A stretch of DNA of 64,000 nt from an uncultured Candidatus Saccharibacteria bacterium. GTDB taxonomy: Bacteria; Patescibacteriota; Minisyncoccia; Phycocordibacterales; SBAW01. The position numbers and the translations under genes were made by a program. How positions within the stretch are numbered: the first letter of the stretch is position 1; every line of letters starts with the position of its first letter. The notes under the pieces are model-generated. The model searched no databases. It worked only from the letters and a program-made list of their open reading frames with translations, and was not told the DNA's origin. Location: positions 2,273 through 66,272 of the forward strand of contig CAYGHD010000001.1 of assembly GCA_964349675.1 (NCBI GenBank), given 5' to 3'. This document shows positions 24,441 through 62,817 of this stretch, piece by piece.

Positions 24441-24449
24441 TAGGGATGT

Positions 24450-26076: not shown

Positions 26077-26082
26077 ACTGAT

Positions 26083-29427: not shown

Positions 29428-29430
29428 GGT

Positions 29431-30312: not shown

Positions 30313-30326
30313 CAGAGCGTATTTAA

Positions 30327-35431: not shown

Positions 35432-35447
35432 GTGCGGCGGGTGGCGG

Positions 35448-36080: not shown

Positions 36081-36155
36081 CTCCGAGACCTTTTTCTAAA
36101 TGTACAACGCGTCATTAATGTAACATATAAACTACAGTAGTCAATATGTGCTACT

Positions 36156-36977: not shown

Positions 36978-37001
36978 AAGGGTGGTAGTATTCTTTTTGT
37001 T

Positions 37002-39214: not shown

Positions 39215-39249
39215 GCCGGATATTCTACCACAGCGCCCTTTTTACAAGC

Positions 39250-40161: not shown

Positions 40162-40165
40162 CTAT

Positions 40166-43316: not shown

Positions 43317-43390
43317 CGCACCTATTGTTTTCTTGACGTGCTTCGTATAGAGTGGTCTCTAGTTGCAACGCGTAGGGAAGGACCCTAACA

Positions 43391-44386: not shown

Positions 44387-44396
44387 ATCACTAGAG

Positions 44397-44426
44397 GTCG
44401 ACGCATTGCGTCGGCCTTTTTCTTTA
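44397..44426 (+). terminator. Rho-independent terminator after neuB
   Basis: ggtcgacgc-att-gcgtcggcc hairpin (9-bp stem, one G-U) followed by tttttcttt, 11 bp after the stop. Confidence 0.5.
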
Positions 44427-44441
44427 TAGAGGTCTTGTAGT

Positions 44442-46438: not shown

Positions 46439-46468
46439 ATACGCTCGATTGTAGGCTATGATGTGCCT

Positions 46469-47407: not shown

Positions 47408-47411
47408 TACT

Positions 47412-49784: not shown

Positions 49785-51622
49785 ATGTCCTTGGATTGAA
49801 AGTTGGCGGGCATGACCCAGGTGCCGCGCTCATATCAAATAATGGCGGCACTACTCGCGTATGTGCGATTGCAGAAGAGCGACTGACGCGCGTCAAACAT
49901 GCGCCGCATGCGTTCCCGACACAATCAATCGTGTATGTGTTGGAGAATCTTGGAATACCAAAAGAGGATATCGACTTGATCGTGTATGACACCACTATCG
50001 ACGAAGTGCAATTTACAAATGAGGTGGAGTCGACAAGGTGGGTCAAAGAGCGGGTGGGTGCAGGGTTTACAAAAGCTCAGTTTGTGGGGGTTGGACATCA
50101 TGATGCACATGCAGCGACCGCTTTTTTCTGCTCGCCGTACGAAGAGTCTGCGGTGCTTGTGTATGACGGGAGCGGTGCTATTTTCCCCAGTCCGCAGGGT
50201 GGCATGGTGACGGAGACGGAAACTTTTTACAAAGGCAAGGGTAGTACCCTTACGGTAATACATAAAACTGCGCATGTGTGCACGCCGGCCGGGTTTCCCT
50301 ACAGTGTGGGGATTGGCCGTCTCTACTCAAACTTGTCTCAAAATTATATTTCGTTTGGGCCGCACAATGAGGGGAAGATGATGGGGCTCGCCGCATATGG
50401 AGACGACTCATTTCTGAAAGCGTTTCCGTATGAGCGCTGGGTCAAACGCTACAACGGGGAATTGTTGTGCAATAACCAAGTGAGTTATCCCATGCGTGGA
50501 GCGACTGCGTTTATAAAGCGATCGGGGAGTCCCACACGTCTCCTGCTCGATGTGTATAATGGGGTACTGTCTCGCGGCCGGCGATTATTTTTTAAAGCAA
50601 CTACAGTAGTCACCGGCCGGCTTGGCGCTGAAGCAGTGTATCCAAAAATATTTGAGCCGATACGATTTGCTCGGCCAAACCGCGATGCGGGTGCAGAAAA
50701 GCTCCCGGATGCATACTTCAGCTCAGTTGCATTTGCCGCGCAAAAAATATTTGAACAATATGCAATAGAACTTGGTACATATCTTAAAAATGTCACAGAG
50801 AGTGATACGTTGTGTGTGGCTGGCGGGTGTGCGCTCAACATTGATGCAAACAGAAATTTTTTAACAAAAGTCGGGTTCAAAAACTTGTTTGTACAGCCAG
50901 CGTCCTCTGACTGCGGCATCCCGCTGGGGTGCGCGCTGTGGGGCATGCATGCGGTGCTTGGTCAACCACGTGCGTGGGTGATGCAATCTGCGTCGCTTGG
51001 AAAACCATACAGCAAAACAGAAGTAGAAAAAGCTATTGCTGCGCGCAAAGACGAGGTGGAATATCAGTATGTTGACGATGCGCCCAAAGAAGCAGCTCGT
51101 TTGATTGCAGATGGGAACATCATTGGTTGGTTTCAGGGCGGGGCAGAGTATGGGCCGCGTGCGCTTGGCAACCGGTCAATTGTCTGCGATGCGCGGGGCA
51201 AGGATATGAAAGATGTCTTGAACAACCGAGTCAAACATCGAGAATCGTGGCGGCCATTCGCAGCATCAATTTTGCTTGAAAAAATGTCGGAGTGGTTTGA
51301 CTTCAGTACGGAGAGTCCCTATATGTTGCTGACGGGAAGTGTGCTGCCGCATAAACGAAAGGATGTTCCGTCCATTGTGCATGTCGATGGCACCTGCCGG
51401 TTACAGTCACTGACTGAAACGCAAAACGGCCCCTATTGGGCGCTTGTAAAAGAATTCGAAGCATGTACTGGCGTACCGCTTGTGCTCAACACGTCATTTA
51501 ACCTCGGCGGCGATCCTATTGTAGAGACGCCGGAAGATGCACTTGATACATTTTTGCGCACAGATATGGATTACTTGGTTATGGAGCATGCGGTCATACG
51601 AAAGCGCGGAGCAAAGAAATAA
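49781..51622 (+). CDS. Carbamoyltransferase (NodU/CmcH family O-carbamoyltransferase)
   Basis: MNVLGLKVGGHDPGAALISNNGG ... GVGHHDAHAATAFF ... C-terminal domain with HVDGTCRLQ; 613 aa; ATGA overlap with the SDR stop. Confidence 0.75.
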   Translation: MNVLGLKVGGHDPGAALISNNGGTTRVCAIAEERLTRVKHAPHAFPTQSIVYVLENLGIPKEDIDLIVYDTTIDEVQFTNEVESTRWVKERVGAGFTKAQFVGVGHHDAHAATAFFCSPYEESAVLVYDGSGAIFPSPQGGMVTETETFYKGKGSTLTVIHKTAHVCTPAGFPYSVGIGRLYSNLSQNYISFGPHNEGKMMGLAAYGDDSFLKAFPYERWVKRYNGELLCNNQVSYPMRGATAFIKRSGSPTRLLLDVYNGVLSRGRRLFFKATTVVTGRLGAEAVYPKIFEPIRFARPNRDAGAEKLPDAYFSSVAFAAQKIFEQYAIELGTYLKNVTESDTLCVAGGCALNIDANRNFLTKVGFKNLFVQPASSDCGIPLGCALWGMHAVLGQPRAWVMQSASLGKPYSKTEVEKAIAARKDEVEYQYVDDAPKEAARLIADGNIIGWFQGGAEYGPRALGNRSIVCDARGKDMKDVLNNRVKHRESWRPFAASILLEKMSEWFDFSTESPYMLLTGSVLPHKRKDVPSIVHVDGTCRLQSLTETQNGPYWALVKEFEACTGVPLVLNTSFNLGGDPIVETPEDALDTFLRTDMDYLVMEHAVIRKRGAKK

Positions 51623-51680
51623 TTGACGTAAAACAAATTTTGTTCTATTTTGTAGACGGAACATACGAAAGGTTCAAAAC

Positions 51681-52205
51681 ATGTTTTTTGCAGATCAAGG
51701 GGTCATGGGGCGCGCCAAAGAGGTGGAGCTCGTGTGCTTGGATTTTGATGGCACACTGACCGACGGCATGGTGTACGTTGACGAGACGGGCTGCGAGACA
51801 GTCCGCTGCAGCCGGCGGGATAGCCTGGGTATCGAGATGCTCAAGGCGGCAGGTATTGCGGTCTTCGTGATCTCGAAAGAGACAAACCCGGTTGTTGCTG
51901 CGCGTTGTAAAAAAATGAACGTGCGGTGTGAACAAGGAGTGGCTTCGGGAGAGGATAAGGCTGTAATCCTTCGGCGCCTTGCCGAAGGTGTCGGTGTGAA
52001 GCTCGAAGCGATTGCCTACATGGGCGACGATGTGAACGACATCGCTGCGCTGCAGTTGGTTGGTCTCGCGGTGGCTCCTGCCGACGCGCATCCAAAGGTG
52101 CGCAAAGTAGCCCACCATTTGACGGAGGCTCGGGGCGGCAACCACGCGGTGCGTGAGCTCTGCGACCTCATTCTTGAGGCGCAAGGGAAGTCCTCTGATA
52201 TGTAG
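51681..52205 (+). CDS. HAD-IIIA KdsC-family sugar-acid phosphate phosphatase (Kdo-8-P / nonulosonate-9-P phosphatase-like)
   Basis: VELVCLDFDGTLTDG (DxDGT motif I) ... VFVISKE ... YMGDDVNDIAAL; 174 aa as in KdsC/KDN-9-P phosphatases. Confidence 0.65.
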   Translation: MFFADQGVMGRAKEVELVCLDFDGTLTDGMVYVDETGCETVRCSRRDSLGIEMLKAAGIAVFVISKETNPVVAARCKKMNVRCEQGVASGEDKAVILRRLAEGVGVKLEAIAYMGDDVNDIAALQLVGLAVAPADAHPKVRKVAHHLTEARGGNHAVRELCDLILEAQGKSSDM

Positions 52206-52255
52206 CGGTTATCCACAATTCCGGAGATGCGATCTCCGGAGAAACAAAGGAGTCG

Positions 52256-53284
52256 TTGATGGAAAAGACATTTCTCGCTTTTGCGAGAGACATGGGTGCT
52301 GCCAACACGGTGGTGCCTATTGCGATACAGTTGAGAACGCTCGGACACACCGTCTTCATCTGCCTCGACCAAGGCGGCAAAGCGGTAGAGCAGTATCCGT
52401 CATTCACGGCGGTATATCAGCCAGCATACTTCAATTATCTTCTGGGTCAGCGCAAAGTAGATGCGATTCTCAACGGGCTCTCATCGCCGCGCGGCGACCT
52501 GGAGCTCTGGCTGGACGCCAATGCTCCGCTGCTGCGCGACACTCCACTGCTGGTGCAGTGTGAAGACTATTGGGGCGCGCACACGCGTTCGAGGGTGGCT
52601 CCTGATGCGCTCATCACAATTGACAACACGGCGCGGAGATTGGCTCGAGCCGCTGGCGTACGTTCGCGGATATGCACTGCAGGATTTGCCGGCGTCTCTC
52701 CGGTAGATCCAAGTGCGCATATTCAGCTCGTGATGCAGCAGCATCGCGCACAGACGCCCGGTGTGCAGATCTTGGTGTACCCAGATGGTGGACCAGAATG
52801 TGAGCTCGCGCTCCCTCGGCTCGTTGAGTCGATTTTGCAGACACGTGCGCCGGTTATGCTGGTCCCAAAATTCCATCCAAAGTTCAAAAAGGTGAGGCAT
52901 CCGCGGGGCGGCACATGGGATCAATGGTGCCGGCAACAGTTGGTACCGCTGTACAATGCGGACAAGGTCATCGATGTTGAAGGTCCCACCAATCAAGTCA
53001 TCGCCTGCGCTGACGGTGTCGCATCCGGGTATTCAACGCTTTTGATGCGGCCGGCGACTACAGGCAAGCTCGCGCTCACGCTTTGGGACGGGGCAGTCGA
53101 AACAGAGCTCCGCAAGGAGACAGGTCTCGCGCAGACCCCGCTTATGCTGCAGCGCAAGCGCTTCCCGTACCTGACGAGCGTCATGCCGCTCGATGAGTTC
53201 TTTACTGTCGCACAGCCGACGCTCGCTTTGCCGCCCCTACAGCCGGGCAAAGCAGCTGACTTTGTGCTCTCGCTCCTGACGTAG
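52256..53284 (+). CDS. Hypothetical protein (342 aa), GC-rich; possible GT-B-like or epimerase-like fold
   Basis: No motif confidently recognised; followed by tandem terminators. Confidence 0.3.
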   Translation: MMEKTFLAFARDMGAANTVVPIAIQLRTLGHTVFICLDQGGKAVEQYPSFTAVYQPAYFNYLLGQRKVDAILNGLSSPRGDLELWLDANAPLLRDTPLLVQCEDYWGAHTRSRVAPDALITIDNTARRLARAAGVRSRICTAGFAGVSPVDPSAHIQLVMQQHRAQTPGVQILVYPDGGPECELALPRLVESILQTRAPVMLVPKFHPKFKKVRHPRGGTWDQWCRQQLVPLYNADKVIDVEGPTNQVIACADGVASGYSTLLMRPATTGKLALTLWDGAVETELRKETGLAQTPLMLQRKRFPYLTSVMPLDEFFTVAQPTLALPPLQPGKAADFVLSLLT

Positions 53285-53290: not shown

Positions 53291-53361
53291 ACGCCGCCGT
53301 AACCTTTTGTGATACGGCGGCGTTTTCTTTATTAAGTGTAGCCCGCATGCTACACTTTTTT
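53291..53361 (+). terminator. Tandem Rho-independent terminators
   Basis: Hairpin 1: acgccgccgta...tacggcggcgt + ttttcttt (53291-53330). Hairpin 2: gtgtagc-ccgcat-gctacac + tttttt (53336-53361). Confidence 0.55.
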
Positions 53362-53406: not shown

Positions 53407-55176
53407 ATGAGCATATTTGCAACGGTCCGCACACTCTGGCGCGCATTTAGCCGGTATCGTTGGCACTTAGGAGTGCTTATTATATTAGGTTTTTTGGGCG
53501 CAATACTTGAAGGCATCGGCATCAATGCAGCGATTCCACTCGTCTCTTTTTTTAACGGTGGTACCGGCGCGCCGACTGACTTCATCACGAGCACCATCAA
53601 AAGTCTCTTTGACTTCTTTTCAATCCCGTTTACCTTCCGGTATCTGCTCGCATTTATTTTGAGCCTCTTTTTATTGCGTGCAGTTGCAGTTGTTATTTTT
53701 GGATATATACGCGGATGGGTAGTAACTGATTATTTGTGCGAAGAGAGCGAGGATATGTTGCGCCGCACCATGCTTGCCTCCTGGCCGTTTTTGCTCAAGC
53801 AAAAAATAGGGACACTGCACAACACGCTCGCGCGCGATATCCAGCGTGCGGCAAGTTTGCTTGAAGTGCAGGGGCAAATAATCCAGTCCTTCGGCGGATT
53901 CCTCATGTATTTACTGGTTGCGGTCAATATTTCGCCCACCATGACGCTCTATACGCTTGCGGGTGCAGCCGTGCTATTGCTTGTAGTGCGTCCATTTTTA
54001 TTGCGGACACAACGCATGGGTCAGGAGATGGCGCAGACAGAAAAGAGTCTCGCGCAGTTTTTGACCGAACATATCACCGGCATGAAGTCGATAAAAGCTG
54101 CGGGTGTGGAGCGGCCAGCGCTGCGCGCGGGCAATGCTTTTTTGCGTGCCATGCGCAAACTCTCGCTTAAAATGACTCTGGTGCGTGCAGTCAGTGCGAG
54201 CTTGTTTCAACCGTTCAGTCTCTTATTTGTCATAGCGCTGTTTGCAGTGACCTATAAAACGCCGGGATTCAGCATTATCTCTTTTGCAGCGACACTCTAC
54301 CTCATTCAAAAAATATTTACCTATCTGGAGTCTGGGCAGAGCGCGTTGCAGAGCTTGAGCGAACTCCTACCTTATGCAGACAATGTGTCGCAATGGAAGG
54401 AAAAATTGGGGGAGCATCGAGAAGAAGTGACCCGGGGCAGTAATGCTTTCTCGTTTGAAAAAACAATAACACTCAATCATATTTCTTTCGCGTACACGCC
54501 AGAGCGGTCGATTCTGTCCGATGCAACCATTGAGATCAAGAAAGGCTCTATCACCGGGCTTGTTGGGCCGTCGGGCGCAGGCAAAACATCTGCGGCAGAT
54601 CTGTTGCTGCGCCTTTTTACCCCAACGCAAGGGGATGTGTTGGTGGACGGTGTGTCGGTGGACGATATTGGACTTGATGCATGGCGGCACAACATTGGCT
54701 ATGTATCCCAGGACGTATTTTTGTTCAATGGGACGATAGCAGAGAATATCCGATTTTACCGCAACCTTTCTAAAGAGGCGGTGGTGGCTGCGGCAAAGCA
54801 AGCGCATGTATACGACTTTGTTTCATCTCTGCCGGATGGATTTGAGACTGTCGTGGGTGACCGCGGTGTGCTGTTATCGGGCGGCCAGCGGCAGCGCATT
54901 GCGCTTGCTCGCGCGCTTGTGGGGCAGCCAGCGCTATTGGTGCTCGACGAGGCAACCAGTGCGCTTGATCATGAGTCAGAAAAACTCATCCAAGACGCAA
55001 TCCAGGCGCTTCGGGGCACAACTACGGTGTTTGTTATCGCGCACCGCCCGTCGACTATTGCTGCCGCAGACTCGATTGTGGTGCTTGACCGTGGCAGCGT
55101 GGTTGAGCAGGGGGCTCCGGCCGAGCTGCTCAAAAATAAAGACTCATATTTTGCCCATATGCAAGCGCGAGCATAA
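53407..55176 (+). CDS. ABC exporter, fused permease plus ATPase (MsbA/PglK-type)
   Basis: Six N-terminal TM helices; Walker A GPSGAGKTS; signature LSGGQRQRIALARAL; Walker B LLVLDEATSALD; H-loop IAHR. Confidence 0.8.
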   Translation: MSIFATVRTLWRAFSRYRWHLGVLIILGFLGAILEGIGINAAIPLVSFFNGGTGAPTDFITSTIKSLFDFFSIPFTFRYLLAFILSLFLLRAVAVVIFGYIRGWVVTDYLCEESEDMLRRTMLASWPFLLKQKIGTLHNTLARDIQRAASLLEVQGQIIQSFGGFLMYLLVAVNISPTMTLYTLAGAAVLLLVVRPFLLRTQRMGQEMAQTEKSLAQFLTEHITGMKSIKAAGVERPALRAGNAFLRAMRKLSLKMTLVRAVSASLFQPFSLLFVIALFAVTYKTPGFSIISFAATLYLIQKIFTYLESGQSALQSLSELLPYADNVSQWKEKLGEHREEVTRGSNAFSFEKTITLNHISFAYTPERSILSDATIEIKKGSITGLVGPSGAGKTSAADLLLRLFTPTQGDVLVDGVSVDDIGLDAWRHNIGYVSQDVFLFNGTIAENIRFYRNLSKEAVVAAAKQAHVYDFVSSLPDGFETVVGDRGVLLSGGQRQRIALARALVGQPALLVLDEATSALDHESEKLIQDAIQALRGTTTVFVIAHRPSTIAAADSIVVLDRGSVVEQGAPAELLKNKDSYFAHMQARA

Positions 55177-55220
55177 CGGGTTTCGTAGTGTTGAAAATAG
55201 TCTGGTATAGTGGGGGACAT

Positions 55221-57494
55221 ATGCAATACACCAAATACCTGCGTTGGGCGCTTCTTTTTGGCCTTTCTTTAGTCTTCTTCATACCATTTTTGATAGCCGA
55301 TGGTGGAGTGTTGCCAAACATGTTTTTCCCTTTTATTACGGGAAAAAATTTTGCTTTTCGAATTTTGGTCGAGCTGCTTCTGGGTATATATCTTATTTTG
55401 GCTTTGCGTGAACCAAAATATCGACCACGCGCATCGTGGCTGCTTTGGGCAGCGGGTGCCTTTGTGGTGTGGCTTGGGCTTACAACCGCGACCAGCCTTG
55501 ACCCGGTGAAGAGTTTTTGGAGCAACTTTGAGCGGATGGAAGGGTATGTCACCATACTGCACTTGTTTGTGTATTTTGTAATTGCAGGCGCCGTAGTAAC
55601 TGCAGAGAAATGGTGGGACCGGTTTTTCAACGTATCTGTATCGTCGTCTGTGATTATGGCCTGCTACGCACTGCTCCAAGTGATGGGGGTGCTTGCGATT
55701 AGCACGCAAAGCGGCGCGCGTGCAGATACGACGTTTGGAAACGCAATTTATTTAGCGGTGTTCATGCTCTTTAACTTCTTTATCACTTTGTACTTGTTGG
55801 TGCGGGCGTCGCACAAAGAGCGTCCAGTGGCTTGGCTGCAGTCTGTATATGGTTTGGCGCTCGTGCTCCAATTTGCGGCACTCTTCTTCACACAGACTCG
55901 TGGGTCTATCCTTGGATTGCTTGGTGGGCTGCTTGTTGCTGGTGTGTACATTGCGGTGCGCGCGCAAGCGCCCGAGTGGCGCACATTGCGGCGCATGACC
56001 TGGTATGGGTTGGGTGTTTTGGCAATAGTGGTGATCGGTTTTTTTGCGCTTCGCAATACTGCGGTGGTGCAAAGCTCCCAAACACTGTCGCGGCTCGCGT
56101 CACTCTCGCTCACTGACCGCACGACGCAAGCGCGTGTGCAAATTTGGACTATGGCATACCAAGGGTTTGAGGAGCGTCCAGTGCTTGGTTGGGGCGCAGA
56201 AAACTTTAGCTTCGTCTTCAATAAATACTATGAAGCGTCAATGTACAACCAAGAGCAGTGGTTTGACCGGGCGCACAATCAGTTTCTTGACTGGCTTATC
56301 GCGGGTGGCTTACCAGCATTTGCGCTGTACCTAGCGCTCTTTGTGCTTGCTGCGTGGCTTGTCGTGACTTCGCGAGTACTGTCAGTGCCTGAGCAAGCGG
56401 TCTTTTTGGGACTTTTGGCTGCGTATGCGTTTAACAACCTAATTGTGTTTGGTGACCTGATAAGCTCGGTGTACTTCTTTACTATTCTGGCCTTTGTGCA
56501 CGGGTTTTCTCAACGAGAATTGCCAGGCTTTATGGCACTTTCTAAACCACTGAGCGACCGTGGAGTGATGATGGCCGCGCCTATTGTGGGTGTTGTGGTA
56601 CTGCTTGGTGTGTGGATGCTTAACGCGCCGGGTATTGCGCGGGCGCGCAATATTATTGCAGCAGTGACCACGCAAGTGCCGGTTGCTGACGGTAAGGGAG
56701 GTATTGCGGCTGGGCCAAAAAATCCAAAACAAAATATAGAAGAATTTACTGTCGCATTTAGTGGGCCTTGGCCGGGCACTCCGCTTGGGCGCCAAGAGGT
56801 TGTCGAGCAGCTGCTGCAGTTTGCAAATGCAAGCGCCCGTTCAGCTGCCATCGACCCTGCGGTAAAAAAAGATATCTTCGCACTTGCGGAAAGCTCGGGG
56901 TTGGCGCTGCTCGCTGAGCGTCCAAATGACGCCCGCTTAGAGCTCTTCATGGCATCACTGTATGAAACGTTCGGTCAGTATCCTCAGGCAGAGCAGTACA
57001 TTACCCAAGCGCTCGAACATTCTCCAAAAAAACAACAGCTTATGTTCCAGTTAGGGGTGATACGCTTAAATGCGGGGGACACTGCGGGCGCTATCGCGAT
57101 GCTCAAGCAAGCGTTTGACTCCGAGCCTGCATACGAAGATGCACGCATCTTGTATGCATCAGGGCTCTTCTATGCAAACAATAAAGCAGTTGCAGACGCC
57201 TTGCTTGTGGAGGGGTTTGGCACTGTTTTGGTGGACGACCCTCGTTTGCTTCAGGTGTACACCAACACAAAGCAGTTCGATCGGCTTATCGGTATCTGGC
57301 AAGCTCGGGTAGATGCTCAACCAAACAACGCGGAAACTCGGTTTGGTTTGGCAACAGCATACTTTGCTGCGGGGGATACACAGAACACTATCTTGACGCT
57401 TGAAAAAGCTGCAGGACTCGACATACGGCTTGCTCCGCAGATACAGTCGCTTATCCAACAAATCAAAAACGGTACCCTTAAACCGGGCCAATAG
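55221..57494 (+). CDS. Wzy_C (O-antigen ligase / O-oligosaccharyltransferase-like) polytopic membrane protein with C-terminal TPR-like domain
   Basis: 10 or more TM helices; FTQTRGSILGLLGGLLVAGVYIA, typical of the Wzy_C core; C-terminal 250 aa soluble with TPR-like AYFAAGDTQNTILTLEKAAGLD. Confidence 0.55.
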   Translation: MQYTKYLRWALLFGLSLVFFIPFLIADGGVLPNMFFPFITGKNFAFRILVELLLGIYLILALREPKYRPRASWLLWAAGAFVVWLGLTTATSLDPVKSFWSNFERMEGYVTILHLFVYFVIAGAVVTAEKWWDRFFNVSVSSSVIMACYALLQVMGVLAISTQSGARADTTFGNAIYLAVFMLFNFFITLYLLVRASHKERPVAWLQSVYGLALVLQFAALFFTQTRGSILGLLGGLLVAGVYIAVRAQAPEWRTLRRMTWYGLGVLAIVVIGFFALRNTAVVQSSQTLSRLASLSLTDRTTQARVQIWTMAYQGFEERPVLGWGAENFSFVFNKYYEASMYNQEQWFDRAHNQFLDWLIAGGLPAFALYLALFVLAAWLVVTSRVLSVPEQAVFLGLLAAYAFNNLIVFGDLISSVYFFTILAFVHGFSQRELPGFMALSKPLSDRGVMMAAPIVGVVVLLGVWMLNAPGIARARNIIAAVTTQVPVADGKGGIAAGPKNPKQNIEEFTVAFSGPWPGTPLGRQEVVEQLLQFANASARSAAIDPAVKKDIFALAESSGLALLAERPNDARLELFMASLYETFGQYPQAEQYITQALEHSPKKQQLMFQLGVIRLNAGDTAGAIAMLKQAFDSEPAYEDARILYASGLFYANNKAVADALLVEGFGTVLVDDPRLLQVYTNTKQFDRLIGIWQARVDAQPNNAETRFGLATAYFAAGDTQNTILTLEKAAGLDIRLAPQIQSLIQQIKNGTLKPGQ

Positions 57495-57617
57495 AGCGTT
57501 CGTCGACTTACGCTTTGTCAACAGACCACCCTTCCGCGCCCACGGAAGGGTGGTAGTGTTATGGGGTAAGCGGTTTCGAAACCTTATATTTAAGTTTGTC
57601 TAAAGTAACAAAATAAC

Positions 57618-58715
57618 ATGTCTAAAAAACTTATTGGTGTAGTCTTCGGGCTCTTGTTGGGTATCATGGTGCTGCCACAGTCTGCTGCAGCTACCCCCCC
57701 GCCACTACCACAAAAACTCACTCAAGCACAAATTCAATCTATCATTGGACTCCTCCAGTCCTTTGGCGCAGAGCAGTCGGTGATTAACAAAGTGGCAGTG
57801 ACGCTGGGCGGGTCTGCAGCACCCGCTCAGCCTGGTGTTTGTGTAAACCTTTCTCGCGACTTAACCATTGGCGCAAACAGCGACCAAGTGCGTATGTTAC
57901 AGCGGTATCTAAAAACCAAAGGGTTTTTTGAAGGTGAGCCAACCGGCTATTATGGATTTATCACCGCACAATCGGTTGGAAAGCTCCAAGCGTCGCTTGG
58001 TATCGTATCGTCACCTCAAGACCGCGCCTATGGCATGATGGGGCCGCGGACTCGCGCAGCGCTTATGGTGGGATGCGAAGGGGGGCAAGAGTCTCCAGCA
58101 GGTGCTATTTTTTCCGCGACGCCAACAACAGGCGTTGCGCCACTTAAAGTTCAATTTACTTCGATATATTACTCAACACATGATGCAAGTGAGTCGCAGT
58201 ACTATGTAAACTTTGGCGATGGCACAAAGGATCTTGAAAGAATCACCTGTATAAAATCAAACAATGCGAGCGATCTTGGGTCCTACCGTTGTCTACAGTG
58301 GGGGGTGAGTCATGTCTACAATAGCGGCACATACACAGCGGAGTTGATAAAGAAAGTTGGCAGCCAAGCCACTGTCCTCTCGACGTTACCGATTGTAGTG
58401 TCTGGAGACACTCAAACAAACAATCCTTCGACTACATCATTTTCTGCAACACCAACGACGGGCGTTGCGCCGCTAACCATCTCATTCAAAGTTCCATACA
58501 GGAGTGCAGGAGGTGATTATTTCTCTTTTGGAGATGGCACAACAGGATGTGCAGTGCCAGGTACGACCAACGACTATATGACTGGTTGTTTGGTACCTAT
58601 AAACCAAACATTCACTCATACGTATACGCAGCCAGGTACATATACGGTGGTGCATTCAAGACTCGGTCCTTCTACGGTCTTGGGCACTGCAACTATTACT
58701 GTCGCGCAGAATTAG
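57618..58715 (+). CDS. Secreted protein with putative peptidoglycan-binding domain and two PKD-like repeats
   Basis: Signal peptide MSKKLIGVVFGLLLGIMVLPQSAAA; DQVRMLQRYLKTKGFFEGEPTGYYGFITAQSVGKLQ (PG_binding_1-like); two FSATPTTGVAPL...F... PKD-like modules. Confidence 0.55.
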   Translation: MSKKLIGVVFGLLLGIMVLPQSAAATPPPLPQKLTQAQIQSIIGLLQSFGAEQSVINKVAVTLGGSAAPAQPGVCVNLSRDLTIGANSDQVRMLQRYLKTKGFFEGEPTGYYGFITAQSVGKLQASLGIVSSPQDRAYGMMGPRTRAALMVGCEGGQESPAGAIFSATPTTGVAPLKVQFTSIYYSTHDASESQYYVNFGDGTKDLERITCIKSNNASDLGSYRCLQWGVSHVYNSGTYTAELIKKVGSQATVLSTLPIVVSGDTQTNNPSTTSFSATPTTGVAPLTISFKVPYRSAGGDYFSFGDGTTGCAVPGTTNDYMTGCLVPINQTFTHTYTQPGTYTVVHSRLGPSTVLGTATITVAQN

Positions 58716-58806
58716 CCGCTGTAGTATCTTGGCTTCTCGTGAAGGCAGAGGTATACTCATAAGGTGAGTGCTAGCATGATGTTAGCCCAACAAAACACAG
58801 TTCAAC

Positions 58807-58841
58807 GAAAAACCACGGCCGAAAGGACGGGGTTTTTCGTT
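58807..58841. terminator. Probable bidirectional Rho-independent terminator
   Basis: aaaaacc-[acggccgaaaggacgg]-ggttttt: A-run, GC hairpin with a GAAA loop, T-run. Confidence 0.4.
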
Positions 58842-58957
58842 TCTAAAAGTGGGGGTATACTGTACAAGTGCGTCTCGTGCGGGGGGCGAACTGCACTCAC
58901 ATTTTGAACAATGTTTTGGAGCTCGCATCCGCTTCCCGCACGGGATACAGTAGTGCA

Positions 58958-59971
58958 ATGACTATCGAAGAGAATATACCGTTGGCACCATATACCACTT
59001 TTGGGATAGGTGGGCCGGCGCGTTTTTTTATACGAGTACAACATGTTGCAGAGTTACAAGAGGCTCTGTCTTTTGCTGCACAAAAACATCTGAGGATTTT
59101 TATACTAGGCGGTGGGTCAAATGTTGTTATAGATGATGCTGGTTTTGATGGTCTAGTGATAAAAATAGAGATACAGGGAATAGAAACTCTGCAAGAAGCA
59201 GAGGATGTTTTTGTTGTGGCTGGGGCGGGGGACTCTTGGGACGCCTTGGTCGCTCATGCGGTTGCAGAAGGGTTGTGGGGTATGGAAAATTTGTCAGGCA
59301 TCCCTGGTACGGTTGGAGGCGCGGTGGCCGGCAATATTGGCGCGTATGGCCAAGCGCTATCGCAGACGCTCGCGTGGGTTGAGGTGTTGGACAGCACAGG
59401 TGAGATAAAAAAATTTACCAACACGGAGTGCGCTTTCGGCTACCGAGAAAGCTTTTTCTCTACACATGCAGGCGGATATACTATCGTCCGTGCAGCGTTC
59501 CGGCTTTCTCAGGCGCCTATGCCTGATTTGAGCTACAAAGACCTTAGAGAGCGCTTTTTGGACGTGCAGGTGCCGTCTATTGTGGCAATACGCGATGCGG
59601 TGTTAGAGATACGTCGCGGCAAATTCCCAGATTTAGATGTGGAGGGTACTGCGGGATCTTTTTTTAAAAATCCAATAGTGACACAAGCCGCTGCAGCAGC
59701 GCTGTGCGCACAATACCCACAGATGCCAACCTTTGCGATGCCTGAAACTGCAGGAGTTAAAGTGCCGCTTGCATGGCTGCTCGATCACGTGCTCAACCTA
59801 AAAGGATTTACAGTGGGCGGCGCACGCTTGTTTGAAAAACAGCCGCTCGTTATTGCTGCAAAAAAAGGTACCGCAAGTGGCGATGTGCTGGCTCTTGCGG
59901 CAGTGGTGATGCAAAAAGTACAAGAAAGTTTTTCTATTTCGATAGAGCCAGAAGTAAAAATAATAAAATAA
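58958..59971 (+). CDS. murB: UDP-N-acetylenolpyruvoylglucosamine reductase
   Basis: ENIPLAPYTTFGIGGPARFFIRV ... ILGGGSNVV ... C-terminal MurB domain; start chosen at internal ATG 58958. Confidence 0.8.
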   Translation: MTIEENIPLAPYTTFGIGGPARFFIRVQHVAELQEALSFAAQKHLRIFILGGGSNVVIDDAGFDGLVIKIEIQGIETLQEAEDVFVVAGAGDSWDALVAHAVAEGLWGMENLSGIPGTVGGAVAGNIGAYGQALSQTLAWVEVLDSTGEIKKFTNTECAFGYRESFFSTHAGGYTIVRAAFRLSQAPMPDLSYKDLRERFLDVQVPSIVAIRDAVLEIRRGKFPDLDVEGTAGSFFKNPIVTQAAAAALCAQYPQMPTFAMPETAGVKVPLAWLLDHVLNLKGFTVGGARLFEKQPLVIAAKKGTASGDVLALAAVVMQKVQESFSISIEPEVKIIK

Positions 59972-60259
59972 AAAATATTTTTTTATTTTTAAAAAGTTAT
60001 CCACAGAAAAATATTTTTTTTCATTGTAACTGAGGGCGACGTGTCTGATACTTATGGGTAGAACATCGAGATGTGTTCATTGCGTCGTCCTAGGGCGCAC
60101 AGTGAACAAGGTCGATCGATGTTAAAACCTAAAGTGCGACATCGGCGTCGCTACTAACATGGCAGCAAAAAAGAAAAAAGCAGCAGCAAAGAAGAAACAC
60201 CGCTAACTGCGGTTGAGGCCTCTGCAGTAATGCACAGGTTACTCTTCTCGAAAGAAAAT

Positions 60260-60289
60260 CCTCCACCCTCTCGGTGGGGGTTTTTCTTT
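60260..60289 (+). terminator. Strong Rho-independent terminator 24 bp upstream of the secA start
   Basis: cctccacc-ctctc-ggtggggg (8-bp GC stem, one G-U) followed by tttttcttt. Confidence 0.55.
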
Positions 60290-60312
60290 GCAGATTATGG
60301 TAGAATCCTTGC

Positions 60313-62817
60313 ATGTTTTCCATTTCCAATCTCTTTGGGGACCCATCGGCCAAGGTGGTGCGCCAGCACGAAAAAGTCGTTGCGGTGATTAACGATTTTG
60401 AGCCCGAGTACCAGGCTTTGTCTGACGATTTGCTCAGTAAAAAGACCGAGGCGTTCCGTAACCGCTTAGCTGTGGGCGAGACACTGGAAGCGCTATTGCC
60501 CGAAGCATTTGCCGCGGTGCGCGAAAGCGCTCGACGCAACGTCCGTTTGCGGCCATTCGACGTACAGCTTGTCGGCGGTTTGGTGCTGCATAACAGCGGT
60601 ATTGCTGAGATGAAAACTGGAGAGGGTAAGACGTTGGTCGCAACACTCCCTGCGTATACTAATGCGCTGTTACAAAAAGGCGTGCACGTAATCACGGTCA
60701 ATGATTATCTTGCGCGACGCGATGCGGTGTGGATGGGGCAAGTGTATGCGGGGCTCGGTATGTCGGTTGGGGTAATTAACCATGACGCATCATATATCTA
60801 CGACCCGTCGCACGCAGAAAATGATTCGATGCGCGACGAAGAGGGGAGTTTTAAAGTGTTTTATGAATTTTTGCGTCCCTGTACGCGCCCCGAAGCCTAT
60901 GAGGCAGACGTTACGTACGGCACTAATAGCGAGTTTGGGTTTGACTATTTGCGTGACAATATTTCCTATCGGGCGAGCGATTTGCGCCAGCGCGGACACT
61001 ACTTTGCGGTCGTCGATGAAATAGATTCTATTTTAATAGATGAGGCGCGCACTCCGCTTATTATTTCAGCGCCAACCAATGAATCTGAAGATTTATATAA
61101 AAAGTTTTCAGTTATTGCGCGTGATTTGACGCCAGGCACGGACTATACCGTTGACGAAAAACTCAAGGCGATACAGTTGACTGACGCAGGCATCGAGCGC
61201 GCAGAAAAGTTGCTCGGGGTTGAAAATATATATACTGAACACGGGATTAAATTGGTGCATCATCTAGAAACCGCGGTGCGGGCTCAGTCATTATTCCGCA
61301 AAGACAAAGAATATGTTGTTAAGGATGGCGAGGTGATTATTGTTGATGAGTCTACCGGCCGCATGCAGCCAGGGCGGCGTTGGTCTGAAGGGTTGCATCA
61401 GGCTGTCGAGGCAAAAGAGGGTGTGGTGGTACAAAAAGAGTCGCGCACGTTCGCATCCATTACGTACCAAAATTATTTCAGGCTCTATAGCAAGTTGGCG
61501 GGGATGACCGGCACCGCAAAAACCTCCGCAGAGGAGTTTTATAAAGTGTATGGTTTAGAGACCATTGAAGTCCCCACCAACAAGCCCGTTGTCCGCATCG
61601 ACCAGCATGATCAAATATTCCAGACTGAGCAAGGTAAATTTAAAGCGCTCGCGCGCAAAATAAAAGAGGTGCATAGCAAGGGGCAGCCTATTTTGGTGGG
61701 CACCGTTTCTATCGAAAAAAATGAATTGTTGTCGGCGTACTTACGTACAGAAGGGGTGCCGCACGAGACGCTTAATGCAAAAAACCATGAGCGCGAAGGA
61801 GAAATTATTGCCGAGGCAGGTAAAAAAGGTAACGTCACCGTTGCAACCAACATGGCCGGCCGCGGCGTGGACATCAAGCTTGGGGGTGCACTAGCTTCAA
61901 AAGAAGATGCGGATGCGGTGCGCACCTTGGGCGGGTTGTTTGTGTTGGGCACTGAGCGGCATGAGGCGCGCCGCATCGACAACCAGCTGCGTGGCCGTGC
62001 TGGCCGCCAAGGCGACCCAGGAGAGACACAGTTTTTTGTCTCGCTCGAAGACAACCTCATGCGCGTGTTTGCACCAGAGTCTATCAAGAATTTGATGGGG
62101 CGGTTCGGTATCCCTGAAGACGAGCCTATTGAAAACTCGCTTGTGTCCCGTGCGCTTGAAAGTGCTCAGACAAAGATAGAAGGATTTAACTTTGACGCGC
62201 GTAAACACGTGCTCGAATTTGATACCATTTTAGACCGCCAGCGCCGCGCAGTGTACGATCGCCGCCGCGCGGTGCTCGCAGGGTCGCTCGACGATGTGGC
62301 CACAGCGCTACAAGGTTTGGCAGGTGAGAGCGACGCGGCAAAAGAGCTCTTGCAACAAAAAGAGGTTGAATGCGGGCGCGAAGCGTTAATGCTTGCGATG
62401 CGTAGTGTGGTACTACAAACACTCGACACACTATGGGTCGAGCACTTGGAGTCTATGGAGTACTTGCGCGGCAGTGTAAACTTACGCGCCTATGGCCAAC
62501 GTGACCCATTGACCGAGTACCGCAAAGAAGGAACCCGGCTTTATCGGGAGCTGGAACAGACGCTTGCGGCAAAAGTATTTGAAGTGCTCGAAACATACAC
62601 CAAAGAGGTGATAGAACAAATGACCAGCGCGACCATTGCCGACAAAACACCAAAAACAACTATTGAAAATTCTGGTGGGACCATAACGCTCATGGCACCT
62701 CCTGCACATGCAAAAGAGATAGAGCGCAACGATCCGTGTCCATGCGGCTCTGGTAAAAAATGGAAAAACTGCGGCCTTAAAAATACTGACGAGCATCGCA
62801 AACGAATAGGGGCATAG
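60313..62817 (+). CDS. secA: Preprotein translocase ATPase SecA
   Basis: Walker A MKTGEGKTLVATLPAY; DEIDSILIDEARTPLIIS; NMAGRGVDIKLGG; C-terminal zinc finger CPCGSGKKWKNCG; 834 aa. Confidence 0.9.
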   Translation: MFSISNLFGDPSAKVVRQHEKVVAVINDFEPEYQALSDDLLSKKTEAFRNRLAVGETLEALLPEAFAAVRESARRNVRLRPFDVQLVGGLVLHNSGIAEMKTGEGKTLVATLPAYTNALLQKGVHVITVNDYLARRDAVWMGQVYAGLGMSVGVINHDASYIYDPSHAENDSMRDEEGSFKVFYEFLRPCTRPEAYEADVTYGTNSEFGFDYLRDNISYRASDLRQRGHYFAVVDEIDSILIDEARTPLIISAPTNESEDLYKKFSVIARDLTPGTDYTVDEKLKAIQLTDAGIERAEKLLGVENIYTEHGIKLVHHLETAVRAQSLFRKDKEYVVKDGEVIIVDESTGRMQPGRRWSEGLHQAVEAKEGVVVQKESRTFASITYQNYFRLYSKLAGMTGTAKTSAEEFYKVYGLETIEVPTNKPVVRIDQHDQIFQTEQGKFKALARKIKEVHSKGQPILVGTVSIEKNELLSAYLRTEGVPHETLNAKNHEREGEIIAEAGKKGNVTVATNMAGRGVDIKLGGALASKEDADAVRTLGGLFVLGTERHEARRIDNQLRGRAGRQGDPGETQFFVSLEDNLMRVFAPESIKNLMGRFGIPEDEPIENSLVSRALESAQTKIEGFNFDARKHVLEFDTILDRQRRAVYDRRRAVLAGSLDDVATALQGLAGESDAAKELLQQKEVECGREALMLAMRSVVLQTLDTLWVEHLESMEYLRGSVNLRAYGQRDPLTEYRKEGTRLYRELEQTLAAKVFEVLETYTKEVIEQMTSATIADKTPKTTIENSGGTITLMAPPAHAKEIERNDPCPCGSGKKWKNCGLKNTDEHRKRIGA

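What the first reader, a model, noticed from the sequence alone, without database searches (positions are those of the whole stretch)
53407..57494. MsbA/PglK-type ABC exporter immediately followed by a Wzy_C-TPR protein: candidate lipid-linked glycan flippase plus O-oligosaccharyltransferase
Wzy_C-domain proteins are either LPS O-antigen ligases or protein O-OTases (PglL/PilO). If this is a monoderm (see the holin-family and CcdA genes; no LPS genes seen), an O-OTase or wall-polymer ligase role is more plausible than WaaL. The adjacent fused ABC exporter resembles PglK-type LLO flippases, and the C-terminal TPR domain could provide acceptor recognition. Together with the upstream NDP-sugar pathways this outlines an en-bloc glycan assembly, flipping and transfer system.
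Basis: inference. Interest (0 to 1): 0.55.

Follow-up and report, generated by a model that had tools for sequence, protein, structure and literature searches.

The report
Glycan flippase plus surface-glycan ligase pair
In a tiny LPS-free "candidate phyla radiation" bacterium, an ABC exporter and a WaaL-like enzyme with an outward-facing TPR domain form a two-gene unit that most likely flips a finished lipid-linked sugar chain across the membrane and attaches it to a surface acceptor; the ligase is a conserved core gene of the whole bacterial class.

Summary
ORF 53407-55176 is a fused ABC exporter. ORF 55221-57494 (true ATG start, not GTG 55188) is a Wzy_C protein with a C-terminal TPR domain. 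The organism is a Patescibacterium (Paceibacteria, Adlerbacteria-like), a lineage reported to lack LPS genes.

It is a class-wide gene (40-65% identity, at least 506 species). It is fixed upstream of murB and secA, often overlapping murB by 4 bp, at the edge of a hypervariable glycan-gene island.

Only about 15% of ligase loci carry the ABC. But 9 of 9 sampled ABC orthologues lie 0-2 genes upstream of the ligase, each behind a NeuB/CMP-sugar module. ABC and Wzx-type flippases never co-occur nearby (0/48).

The ABC is a generic type IV exporter. It is not a PglK or MsbA equivalog, though its model has a PglK-like external helix.

The flippase-plus-ligase reading is supported. The acceptor is unresolved: protein is most likely, glycolipid or peptidoglycan possible.

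The parts
53291..53357 (+). Two terminator-like hairpins followed by U-runs, between the preceding gene (stop 53284) and the ABC start. They mark the 5' boundary of the two-gene unit.
   Evidence: 53291-53322 has dG -22.9 kcal/mol, z -4.1, followed by UUUUCUUU. 53334-53357 has dG -11.7, z -5.0, followed by U6. 0 of 200 shuffles fold as well in either case. Sequence read; consensus scan.
53407..55176 (+). Fused TMD-NBD ABC exporter (589 aa, half-transporter, type IV exporter fold). It is the candidate flippase for the completed lipid-linked glycan, which probably contains a nonulosonic acid.
   Evidence: Pfam ABC_membrane + ABC_tran. AF2 pLDDT 85.5, with six long TM helices and a short extracytoplasmic helix at 59-70 between TM1 (15-50) and TM2 (77-122). 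Foldseek top hits are MsbA, Sav1866 and TM287/288, TM 0.8-0.87. NCBIfam best hits are HepA family 345 bits, MsbA 311, PglK 223, all below cutoffs. Synteny. Mutual exclusivity with Wzx.
55221..56621 (+). Membrane domain (aa 1-467, about 13 TM helices) of the Wzy_C-TPR ligase, with a WaaL-like GT-C_B fold. The 86-residue outer loop (aa 278-363, nt 56052-56309) carries invariant R291, R305, E327 and H352. R227 lies at the outer end of TM8.
56622..57494 (+). C-terminal extracytoplasmic domain of the ligase (aa 468-757): extension of the TM13 helix, a beta-hairpin at 485-499, then TPR-like helical repeats at 502-749. It is the candidate acceptor- or partner-binding module.
   Evidence: TPR Pfam families. 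AF2 secondary structure. Fold hits to CTPR and OGT TPR domains. Topology places it outside, because a 13th TM helix follows the cytoplasmic loop 427-448. It is 39% identical on average across distant homologues, with invariant E526, E529, R572, S601, P602, K604, Y645 and Y680.
57525..57554 (+). Strong hairpin just after the ligase stop codon, without a U-run. It is the probable 3' boundary of the ABC-ligase unit in this genome.
   Evidence: dG -26 kcal/mol, z -4.0, 0 of 200 shuffles as stable. The ABC-ligase spacer itself is unstructured (z -0.97).
41406..53284 (.). Proximal part of the upstream glycan island that supplies the donor. It holds a 636-aa candidate nonulosonic-acid transferase (41406-43316), NeuB (43391-44386), a CMP-sugar synthetase (44442-45188), a class-III aminotransferase (45185-46438, - strand), an aldo-keto reductase, a methyltransferase, an SDR, a carbamoyltransferase (49781-51622), a KdsC/KDN-9-P-phosphatase-family HAD (51681-52205) and an unannotated 342-aa gene (52256-53284).
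   Evidence: Pfam; NCBIfam. The same NeuB + CTP_transf_3 (with or without carbamoyltransferase and the 631-aa protein) module precedes the ABC in all 9 sampled genomes.
11428..41395 (.). Distal part of the glycan island: at least 8 glycosyltransferases (GT4, GT2, GT9, GT47), two rml gene sets, GDP-mannose dehydratase, a DegT aminotransferase, two C-methyltransferases, a TylF O-methyltransferase and three PMT_2 GT-C proteins.
   Evidence: Pfam.
57618..62817 (+). Conserved downstream block: a PG_binding_1+PKD secreted protein (57618-58715, present in a few genomes), murB (ORF 58868-59971, probable start about 58958) and secA (60313-62817).
   Evidence: Pfam. murB starts within 1 kb downstream of the ligase in 41/63 loci, and secA lies within 5 kb in 49/52. 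The ligase and murB overlap by 4 bp in L099, L100, L102, L103, L106 and L107, and by 1 bp in L108.

Best explanation
The two genes form one transcription unit at the 3' end of a large surface-glycan island in a Paceibacteria (CPR) genome.

Proposed mechanism:
1. A complex glycan is assembled in the cytoplasm on undecaprenyl pyrophosphate. It likely contains rhamnose-type deoxysugars and a nonulosonic acid, with methyl and carbamoyl decoration.
2. The homodimeric type IV ABC exporter (53407-55176) flips the completed lipid-linked glycan to the outer leaflet. In other genomes of the class a Wzx-type flippase does this step.
3. The 757-aa WaaL-fold enzyme (55221-57494) binds the Und-PP donor through R227 and R305. 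With H352 in its large outer loop, it transfers the glycan en bloc to an acceptor held by its extracytoplasmic TPR domain, releasing Und-PP.
4. The organism has no LPS, and the architecture (13 TM helices plus a C-terminal outer TPR domain) matches protein O-oligosaccharyltransferases (WsfB, PglL, PglS). So the most likely acceptor is Ser/Thr/Tyr of one or more secreted surface proteins.

The ligase is a conserved housekeeping gene of the class that accepts whatever glycan the variable island makes.

Shown: domains, fold, conserved catalytic-type residues, predicted topology, synteny statistics. Inferred: Und-PP donor, flipping by the ABC, the en bloc transfer chemistry, and protein as the acceptor.
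For: - Topology: about 13 TM helices. The K/R-rich loops are cytoplasmic, and the conserved loops and the TPR domain are outside.
- Precedent: WsfB and PglL combine Wzy_C with a C-terminal TPR, and S-layer glycan clusters combine rml genes, an ABC transporter and such an O-OTase (PMC2943079). PglS has 13 TM helices and a C-terminal periplasmic domain.
- No LPS: all homologues are from Patescibacteria. Parcubacteria lack lpxC and kdsA (PMC5220378).
- Relaxed donor specificity: the ligase is 40-65% identical across the class, while the two genes upstream differ almost everywhere and are sugar-pathway genes or flippases.
- ABC as flippase: 9/9 ABC orthologues are 0-2 genes upstream of the ligase and behind a NeuB/CMP-sugar module. 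ABC and Wzx never co-occur within 9.5 kb of the ligase (0/48, with 7 ABC and 17 Wzx; Fisher p=0.04). The window has no Wzx or GtrA. The best curated matches are the glycoconjugate exporters HepA and MsbA. The AF2 model has a short helix at 59-70, where PglK has its external helix (PMC4900756), and basic residues R91 and K302 within the TM helices are invariant.
- Operon: hairpins bracket the pair, there is no structure between the genes, and a Shine-Dalgarno precedes ATG 55221.
Against: - No acceptor protein is identified, and no glycoprotein data exist for this lineage (literature searches found nothing).
- No initiating phosphoglycosyltransferase (Bac_transf or WecA/MraY-type) was found in the 64 kb window or in the 9 ABC-side contexts, so the Und-PP-linked donor is inferred only from the conserved Arg pair.
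- The ABC reaches no curated family cutoff: HepA 345/725, MsbA 311/602, PglK 223/1000. Its TMD alone has no sequence match in the PDB, and PglK is not among the top 50 fold hits. The substrate is therefore inferred from context only.
- The ABC/Wzx exclusivity is marginal (p=0.04), and half of the loci show neither transporter within 9.5 kb.
- The tight, often overlapping coupling of the ligase to murB, together with a TPR domain carrying invariant polar residues, fits a conserved non-protein acceptor such as peptidoglycan at least as well as variable surface proteins.
- TPR topology comes from prediction, not experiment.
Confidence: 0.5

Rival explanations
1. Same flippase and same ligase chemistry, but the acceptor is peptidoglycan or its lipid II precursor. 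The enzyme would be the class-wide wall-glycopolymer ligase, doing the job that LCP enzymes do in Gram-positive bacteria, and the TPR domain would bind the glycan strand or a cell-wall synthesis partner.
Confidence: 0.17
2. Same flippase and ligase chemistry, but the acceptor is a membrane glycolipid, producing a lipoglycan or lipoteichoic-acid-like polymer. This would resemble pneumococcal TacL, which transfers Und-PP-linked teichoic acid chains to glucosyl-diacylglycerol.
For: TacL shows that a ligase acting on Und-PP-linked polymer can serve a glycolipid acceptor in an LPS-free bacterium (PMC12017771). That TacL carries an O-antigen-ligase domain is my own knowledge. A conserved lipid acceptor would explain high ligase conservation next to variable glycans.
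Against: A large extracytoplasmic TPR domain is not needed for a lipid acceptor and, from my own knowledge, is not a TacL or WaaL feature. WaaL is a 403-413-residue chain with no such domain. No glycolipid-anchor synthesis genes were recognised in the window.
Confidence: 0.13
3. The Wzy_C-TPR protein is a Wzy-type polymerase that joins Und-PP-linked repeat units, not a ligase.
For: Pfam Wzy_C also covers polymerases, and the closest PDB entry is itself titled 'polymerase/ligase'. Wzx-type flippases, the usual partners of Wzy, lie within 9.5 kb in 17/48 loci.
Against: Polymerases follow repeat-unit structure and are highly divergent, but this family is 40-65% identical across genomes whose adjacent glycan genes differ almost completely. 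No Wzz chain-length regulator appears in the window or among the top families of 144 neighbours. In this window, and in all 9 ABC-type loci within the 7-8 kb flanks examined, there is no Wzx, and an ABC-dependent route delivers finished chains that need no Wzy. The WaaL-type Arg/Arg/His set is invariant.
Confidence: 0.07
4. The ABC exporter has nothing to do with the ligase. It exports a drug, peptide or soluble polysaccharide, and sits there only because the island is a hotspot for insertions.
For: No curated subfamily cutoff is met. The fold is that of generic multidrug/lipid exporters. Only 7/48 ligase loci have it.
Against: 9/9 sampled orthologues keep the same position relative to the ligase and the NeuB module although the flanking genes differ. 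It never co-occurs with Wzx. It appears co-transcribed with the ligase. It is the only candidate glycan transporter in a 40-kb glycan island.
Confidence: 0.1

Closest known systems
S-layer O-glycosylation (slg) systems of Paenibacillus alvei and Geobacillus stearothermophilus: O-OTases WsfB/WsaB with an ABC transporter
   Same: LPS-free envelope. The glycan cluster has rml genes and many glycosyltransferases. The finished Und-PP-linked glycan is exported by an ABC transporter. The final en bloc transfer is by a Wzy_C-domain enzyme, and WsfB carries a C-terminal TPR motif (PMC2943079).
   Different: Those systems use a two-component Wzm/Wzt ABC transporter, whereas this one is a fused type IV exporter. 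Their clusters contain the initiating WsaP/WsfP enzyme and lie beside the S-layer gene; neither was found here. Direct sequence relatedness to WsfB was not tested, because no sequence was available. This ligase is a class-wide conserved gene tied to murB-secA, not a strain-specific cluster gene.
General and pilin protein O-OTases PglL (Neisseria), PglS (Acinetobacter) and PilO/TfpO (Pseudomonas)
   Same: Wzy_C domain, GT-C_B fold, arginines for the pyrophosphate and a catalytic histidine, 13 TM helices plus a C-terminal periplasmic domain (PglS; PMC12800693), and a C-terminal TPR motif in PglL. They have relaxed glycan specificity, which fits a conserved enzyme next to variable glycan genes.
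   Different: They are diderm proteobacterial enzymes whose donors are flipped by Wzx-type flippases (my own knowledge). This protein is longer, with a roughly 290-residue TPR domain. No acceptor or sequon is known.
WaaL O-antigen ligase (Cupriavidus metallidurans, PDB 7TPG/7TPJ)
   Same: It is the best structural and only non-TPR sequence match in the PDB. R227, R305 and H352 align with its R191, R265 and H313.
   Different: The WaaL chain is 403-413 residues with no C-terminal domain, and its acceptor is lipid A-core, which this lineage is reported not to make. Identity is only 14-16%.
TacL, the lipoteichoic acid ligase of Streptococcus pneumoniae
   Same: A ligase in an LPS-free bacterium that takes an Und-PP-linked polymer on the outer face and attaches it to a non-LPS acceptor (PMC12017771).
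   Different: Its acceptor is a glycolipid and its donor is flipped by a Wzx-like TacF. It has no TPR domain (my own knowledge).
PglK, the lipid-linked oligosaccharide flippase of Campylobacter jejuni
   Same: A homodimeric fused TMD-NBD exporter encoded next to an oligosaccharyltransferase. The AF2 model shows a short helix between TM1 and TM2 where PglK has its external helix, and there are conserved basic residues in the TM region (PMC4900756).
   Different: The NCBIfam PglK model scores 223 bits against a cutoff of 1000 and aligns only residues 161-563, not the TM1-TM2 region. PglK is absent from the top 50 fold hits. PglK's partner is the N-OTase PglB, not a Wzy_C enzyme.
HepA-family and MsbA ABC exporters
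   Same: HepA family (heterocyst envelope polysaccharide) is the best curated sequence match over the full length at 345 bits, followed by MsbA at 311 bits. MsbA is the top fold hit, TM 0.84-0.87. Both export glycoconjugates.
   Different: Both scores are about half of the family cutoffs (725 and 602). There is no lipid A in this lineage and no heterocysts. The TMD alone finds nothing in the PDB by sequence.

Membership tests
Wzy_C / O-antigen-ligase superfamily (GT-C_B fold) | Pfam PF04932 domain above the gathering threshold | tested here: met
   79.9 bits against a cutoff of 31.7, E 2e-22.
Wzy_C / O-antigen-ligase superfamily (GT-C_B fold) | WaaL-like multi-TM fold | tested here: met
Wzy_C / O-antigen-ligase superfamily (GT-C_B fold) | Two conserved arginines and a histidine in or near the large outer loop, for Und-PP binding and catalysis | tested here: met
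   R227, R305 and H352 align to WaaL R191, R265 and H313 and are invariant in 27 and 118 homologues. Their roles are taken from PMC12800693 and my own knowledge of E. coli WaaL R215/R288/H337.
WaaL (lipid A-core O-antigen ligase) | The organism makes the lipid A-core acceptor | tested here: inconclusive
   No lpx or kds lipid A genes in the 64 kb window. All homologues are from Patescibacteria, and a Parcubacterium genome lacks lpxC and kdsA (PMC5220378). The rest of this genome could not be read.
WaaL (lipid A-core O-antigen ligase) | Chain of about 400 aa with no extra C-terminal domain | tested here: not met
   757 aa, about 13 TM helices, plus a 290-residue outer TPR domain. The WaaL chain is 403-413 residues.
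Protein O-oligosaccharyltransferase (PglL/PglS/PilO/WsfB type) | Wzy_C core with a catalytic histidine, plus an extra TM helix and a C-terminal extracytoplasmic domain (a TPR motif in WsfB and PglL) | tested here: met
   The architecture is described in PMC12800693 and PMC2943079. The topology is a prediction.
Protein O-oligosaccharyltransferase (PglL/PglS/PilO/WsfB type) | Encoded with lipid-linked glycan synthesis genes and a flippase | tested here: met
   Glycan island upstream. Neighbours in 80 loci are sugar-pathway genes and flippases. ABC linkage is 9/9.
Protein O-oligosaccharyltransferase (PglL/PglS/PilO/WsfB type) | Transfers glycan to Ser/Thr/Tyr of a protein acceptor | not testable with these tools
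   Needs glycoproteomics or an in vitro or heterologous transfer assay. No literature on CPR was found.
Wzy O-antigen/EPS polymerase | Works with a Wzx flippase and a Wzz co-polymerase in the same locus | tested here: not met
   No Polysacc_synt (Wzx) or Wzz in the window. Wzz is not among the top families of 144 neighbours. Wzx is present in 17/48 other loci.
Wzy O-antigen/EPS polymerase | Sequence diverges with repeat-unit structure | tested here: not met
   40-65% identity across at least 506 species hits while the adjacent glycan genes vary.
PglK-type LLO flippase | Fused TMD-NBD half-transporter with the type IV exporter fold | tested here: met
PglK-type LLO flippase | Scores above the curated PglK equivalog cutoff | tested here: not met
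   NF050066 scores 222.9 bits against a cutoff of 1000 and aligns only residues 161-563.
PglK-type LLO flippase | Short external helix between TM1 and TM2 at the outer membrane boundary | tested here: inconclusive
   The AF2 model has a helix at 59-70 between TM1 (15-50) and TM2 (77-122), with pLDDT about 79 and a low-confidence loop at 52-57. The segment is conserved: D58, I64 and F68 are at least 90% conserved. Its orientation relative to the membrane and its equivalence to the PglK helix (PMC4900756) could not be checked.
PglK-type LLO flippase | Band of arginines lining the outward-facing cavity that binds the pyrophosphate | tested here: inconclusive
   R91 and K302 are invariant, and R78, R102, R195 and R200 are at least 90% conserved in TM segments. 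No residue-level alignment to PglK was available.
MsbA lipid A exporter | Scores above the curated MsbA equivalog cutoffs | tested here: not met
   TIGR02203 scores 310.7 against 602, and NF008381 scores 261.4 against 867. It is the best fold hit, but only marginally ahead of Sav1866 and TM287/288.
HepA-family polysaccharide-related ABC exporter | Scores above the curated HepA family cutoff | tested here: not met
   NF045513 scores 344.6 against 725. It is the best hit and covers the full length, residues 7-586.

The most novel reading that the evidence does not exclude
The Wzy_C-TPR protein is the universal wall-glycopolymer ligase of Paceibacteria. It would be a WaaL-fold enzyme that attaches whatever Und-PP-linked glycan the adjacent hypervariable island produces directly to peptidoglycan or nascent lipid II-derived strands. 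That would be a new acceptor class for this enzyme family, functionally replacing LCP ligases. It would explain the translational coupling to murB, the class-wide conservation of both the catalytic and TPR domains, and the PG-binding protein inserted between the ligase and murB.
Probability: 0.15. Interest if true: 0.8.

Novelty: new variant of a known kind. Interest (0 to 1): 0.5.

Why it matters
The structure and assembly of the CPR/Patescibacteria cell envelope are still described as unclear (PMC5220378). These ultra-small episymbionts depend on surface contact with hosts.

This analysis shows that one WaaL-fold ligase with an outward-facing TPR domain is a conserved core gene across Paceibacteria. 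It is fixed beside murB and secA and sits at the edge of a hypervariable glycan island whose flippase type changes between genomes (ABC, Wzx, GtrA). That points to a major surface glycoconjugate that varies in its glycan but not in its attachment step.

It also gives concrete experimental handles:
- one enzyme to express;
- three residues to mutate (R227, R305, H352);
- a defined ABC flippase candidate tied to nonulosonic-acid sugars;
- a clear three-way question about the acceptor: protein, glycolipid or peptidoglycan.

A relaxed-specificity O-OTase from this lineage could also be useful for glycoengineering.

Tried and rejected
1. Synteny measured from the ligase side first suggested that the ABC is not a partner: directly upstream in 4/66 loci and within 9 kb in 8/48. 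Sampling from the ABC side reversed that conclusion, with 9/9 linked. The association is asymmetric.
2. A metagenome scan with the single ABC protein returned only three close relatives and was not informative.
3. The ABC transmembrane domain alone had no hit in the PDB by sequence. The full-length search was dominated by eukaryotic ABCB1 through the NBD.
4. The afdb50 fold library was unavailable.
6. I tested whether the unannotated 342-aa gene upstream of the ABC, or the unannotated genes between ABC and ligase in other genomes, form a conserved third component. They are unrelated to one another, so this was rejected.
7. An ABC/NeuB association test within the 80 ligase loci was not significant (3 of 7; p=0.33). 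The flank is probably too short, since NeuB is present in all 9 ABC-side contexts.
8. Literature searches for O-antigen ligase or oligosaccharyltransferase or nonulosonic acids in CPR/Patescibacteria found nothing relevant. The WaaL structure paper is not held, and a search for the WaaL residue numbers found nothing. The functional roles of the aligned residues therefore rest on PMC12800693 and on my own knowledge.
9. The IctB 'bicarbonate transporter' reading was dismissed. The NCBIfam hit is 35 bits against a cutoff of 366 and only reflects the shared Wzy_C fold.
10. The GT9 'heptosyltransferase' and the KdsC-family phosphatase in the window were considered as possible LPS-core genes. The GT9 scores far below its family cutoffs. 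The phosphatase sits in the NeuB/CMP-sugar module, so neither is evidence for lipid A-core.

Full report
**Observation**

The two ORFs exist as described: 53407-55176 (+, 589 aa) and 55188-57494 (+, 768 aa from a GTG).
- Pfam gives ABC_membrane plus ABC_tran for the first ORF.
- For the second it gives Wzy_C (79.9 bits against a cutoff of 31.7) plus several TPR families in the C-terminal third.
- The ligase start should be moved to ATG 55221 (757 aa). An identical 757-aa protein is in the public collection (P0001). The family alignment starts at that Met. A GGGGGA Shine-Dalgarno lies 5 nt upstream.

**Organism**

Every named homologue of both proteins comes from Patescibacteria/CPR, mostly Paceibacteria (Adlerbacteria, Kaiserbacteria and relatives). 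A Parcubacterium genome paper reports absence of lpxC and kdsA. It states that the CPR envelope remains unclear and that a glycosylated S-layer or glycoproteins are suspected (PMC5220378). Nothing in the window contradicts this.

**Window context**

- From about 11.4 kb to 53.3 kb the window is one large glycan island. It holds at least 8 glycosyltransferases (GT4, GT2, GT9, GT47), two rml sets, GDP-mannose dehydratase and aminotransferases. It also holds two C-methyltransferases, an O-methyltransferase and a carbamoyltransferase.
- A nonulosonic-acid module is present: NeuB, a CMP-sugar synthetase and a KdsC/KDN-9-P-phosphatase-family HAD.
- There are three PMT_2 GT-C proteins.
- There is no Wzx, GtrA, Wzz or initiating phosphoglycosyltransferase. 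The ABC exporter is the only candidate glycan transporter.
- Downstream lie a PG_binding_1+PKD secreted protein, murB, secA and ccdA.

**The ligase**

- A profile of the membrane domain hits only one non-TPR PDB sequence, WaaL of C. metallidurans (7TPG, E 1e-6). It aligns R227, R305 and H352 with WaaL R191, R265 and the HAHN histidine H313.
- These three residues, and about 50 others in the membrane domain, are invariant in homologues down to 40% identity.
- The AF2 model is confident (pLDDT 92.9, pTM 0.88).
- Hydropathy, the positive-inside rule and the model give about 13 TM helices. The K/R-rich loops are cytoplasmic. The conserved loops and the 86-residue loop carrying R291, R305, E327 and H352 are outside. 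A last TM helix (449-467) delivers the C-terminal beta-hairpin and TPR repeats to the outside.
- In this enzyme class arginines bind the Und-PP pyrophosphate and a histidine is the proposed base. PglS has 13 TM helices and a C-terminal periplasmic domain (PMC12800693).
- WsfB, the Gram-positive S-layer O-OTase, and PglL combine Wzy_C with a C-terminal TPR motif (PMC2943079).

**Conservation and synteny from the ligase side**

- More than 3,688 homologues were found, and the top 120 are 53-89% identical over the full length.
- A genome scan found at least 506 species-level relatives, all Patescibacteria.
- In 80 fetched loci, murB starts within 1 kb downstream in 41/63 loci with enough flank. 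secA lies within 5 kb in 49/52.
- The upstream side is hypervariable. Among the two upstream genes of each locus (144 proteins), the commonest families were epimerases/dehydratases, methyltransferases and GDP-mannose dehydratase. Also present were Wzx-type Polysacc_synt (10), GtrA (6), GT2 (5), ABC exporters (4-5), NeuB (4) and GT9 (3).
- The ligase is therefore a conserved gene at the boundary between a variable glycan island and core genes.
- A conserved enzyme next to variable glycan genes argues for an enzyme that recognises the carrier and the acceptor rather than the glycan. That means a ligase or OTase, not a Wzy polymerase.
- The outer catalytic loop is the most conserved part (61% mean identity). 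The TPR domain averages 39% but keeps invariant polar residues E526, E529, R572, S601, K604, Y645 and Y680.

**The ABC exporter**

- From the ligase side it is uncommon: directly upstream in 4/66 loci, and an orthologue within 9-9.5 kb in 7-8 of 48.
- From the ABC side the link is strong. It has more than 120 clusters of 60-66% identical orthologues in the same class.
- In 9 of 9 sampled orthologues (8 independent contexts), the ABC closes a NeuB + CMP-sugar-synthetase module and lies 0-2 genes upstream of Wzy_C-TPR and murB. secA follows wherever the flank reaches (8 of 9 loci).
- It is directly adjacent to the ligase in four of these loci and in the window.
- In seven of them the ligase overlaps murB by 1-4 bp.
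- ABC orthologues (7 loci) and Wzx-type flippases (17 loci) never co-occur within 9.5 kb of the ligase (0/48, Fisher p=0.04). That is what alternative transporters for the same step would show.
- In the window the pair is bracketed by strong hairpins, two with U-runs upstream and one downstream. The 44-bp spacer between the genes has no structure.

**What kind of ABC exporter**

- No curated family is met: HepA family 345/725 bits over the full length, MsbA 311/602, PglK 223/1000 covering residues 161-563 only.
- The TMD alone finds nothing in the PDB by sequence.
- The AF2 model (pLDDT 85.5) is a standard type IV exporter. It is closest to outward-occluded MsbA, then Sav1866 and TM287/288, and PglK is not in the top 50.
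- The model does place a short conserved helix (59-70) between TM1 and TM2, where PglK has the external helix proposed to bind the polyprenyl tail.
- Basic residues inside TM segments are conserved: R91 and K302 invariant; R78, R102, R195 and R200 at least 90% (PMC4900756).
- These are hints, not proof. 'MsbA/PglK-type' is right for architecture only, and the substrate assignment rests on context.

**Mechanism proposed**

1. The glycan is assembled in the cytoplasm on Und-PP.
2. The ABC flips it.
3. The WaaL-fold enzyme transfers it en bloc to an acceptor presented by the outer TPR domain.

Three acceptor classes are known for such ligases:
- lipid A-core (WaaL);
- protein (PglL, PglS, PilO, WsfB);
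- glycolipid (TacL; PMC12017771).

Lipid A-core is unlikely here. The TPR architecture favours protein. The murB coupling, the conserved TPR residues and the neighbouring PG-binding protein keep a peptidoglycan acceptor alive as a more novel alternative.

Main gaps:
- no acceptor identified;
- no initiating phosphoglycosyltransferase found;
- no direct evidence on the ABC substrate.

**Verdict**

Two reframings apply:
- The ligase is a class-wide core gene, not an island gene.
- The ABC is one of several interchangeable flippase solutions and is specifically tied to nonulosonic-acid modules.

This is a new variant of a known kind of system (flippase plus Wzy_C-type en bloc ligase) in a lineage where nothing of the sort has been characterised. 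Interest is moderate: the parts are familiar, but the finding gives a concrete entry point to the unresolved CPR envelope.

Noticed in passing
window 18716-21103 (+), 21927-22976 (+), 26083-27504 (-), 27501-28199 (-): Three PMT_2-type GT-C proteins, one of them fused to an N-terminal GT2 domain (795 aa). One is paired with a 232-aa GT2 resembling polyprenyl-phosphate-sugar synthases (AglJ, PpgS, ArnC). This looks like a second, independent extracytoplasmic glycosylation route that uses polyprenyl-P-monosaccharide donors. PMT_2 also sits between the ABC and the ligase in L105.
   Followed up: partly
window 30992-32038 (+): A GT9 'heptosyltransferase-family' protein in a lineage without LPS. It scores far below the LPS heptosyltransferase cutoffs. 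GT9 recurs among ligase neighbours in 3 other loci. Its acceptor is unknown.
   Followed up: partly
window 41406-43316 (+); L036 2923-4812; L099 1-1821: A 636-aa protein with only weak Glyphos_transf and BFO_1060-family glycosyltransferase matches sits directly upstream of NeuB. It has homologues in the same module elsewhere: 48% identity in L036 and 24% in L099. It is a candidate nonulosonic-acid transferase of an undescribed family.
   Followed up: partly
window 52256-53284 (+): A 342-aa protein with no Pfam or NCBIfam match lies just upstream of the ABC. Homologues lie upstream of the ligase in L015 (directly adjacent) and L028 (about 2 kb away). It is unrelated to the unannotated genes found between ABC and ligase in other genomes.
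   Followed up: partly
window 57618-58715 (+); L105 13575-15263; L109 3397-4274; L003: A secreted PG_binding_1 + PKD-domain protein is inserted between the ligase and murB. The same slot is occupied in a few other genomes. It could be a wall-anchored surface protein and a candidate glycosylation acceptor.
   Followed up: partly
L099, L100, L102, L103, L106, L107, L108 (ligase/murB junction): The ligase stop and the murB start overlap by 4 bp (1 bp in L108) in seven of the nine ABC-side loci, which suggests translational coupling of a surface-glycan ligase with a cytoplasmic peptidoglycan-precursor enzyme. In the window the two genes are separated by an inserted gene.
   Followed up: partly
window 37002-38288, 40103-41395, 30327-31022, 49781-51622: Two sugar C-methyltransferases, a TylF-type O-methyltransferase and a carbamoyltransferase lie in one island, which is antibiotic-like deoxysugar tailoring chemistry in a genome of roughly 0.55 Mb. 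A carbamoyltransferase also precedes the ABC in L099 and L106.
   Followed up: no
window 1-64000 and the nine ABC-side loci: No initiating phosphoglycosyltransferase (Bac_transf or MraY/WecA-type) is detectable by Pfam in 64 kb of glycan genes or in the 7-8 kb upstream of the ABC in nine other genomes. It is either encoded elsewhere or belongs to an unrecognised family.
   Followed up: partly
window 8729-10558 (+), 10455-11390 (+), 145-3828 (+): A VirD4/TrwB-like coupling ATPase, an adjacent Lamin-Tail-Domain protein and a 1227-aa protein with a reprolysin-like metalloprotease motif lie upstream of the glycan island. They may be surface or DNA-uptake apparatus components.
   Followed up: no
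window 3865-6445 (+): A MurD-like ligase is followed directly by MurC, with no ftsW or murG between them, unlike the usual dcw order.
   Followed up: no
window 1-64000: GC skew is positive in 31 of the 32 two-kb bins, the cumulative skew rises to 2.84, and almost all genes are on the + strand. The window is consistent with lying on a single leading-strand replichore.
   Followed up: no
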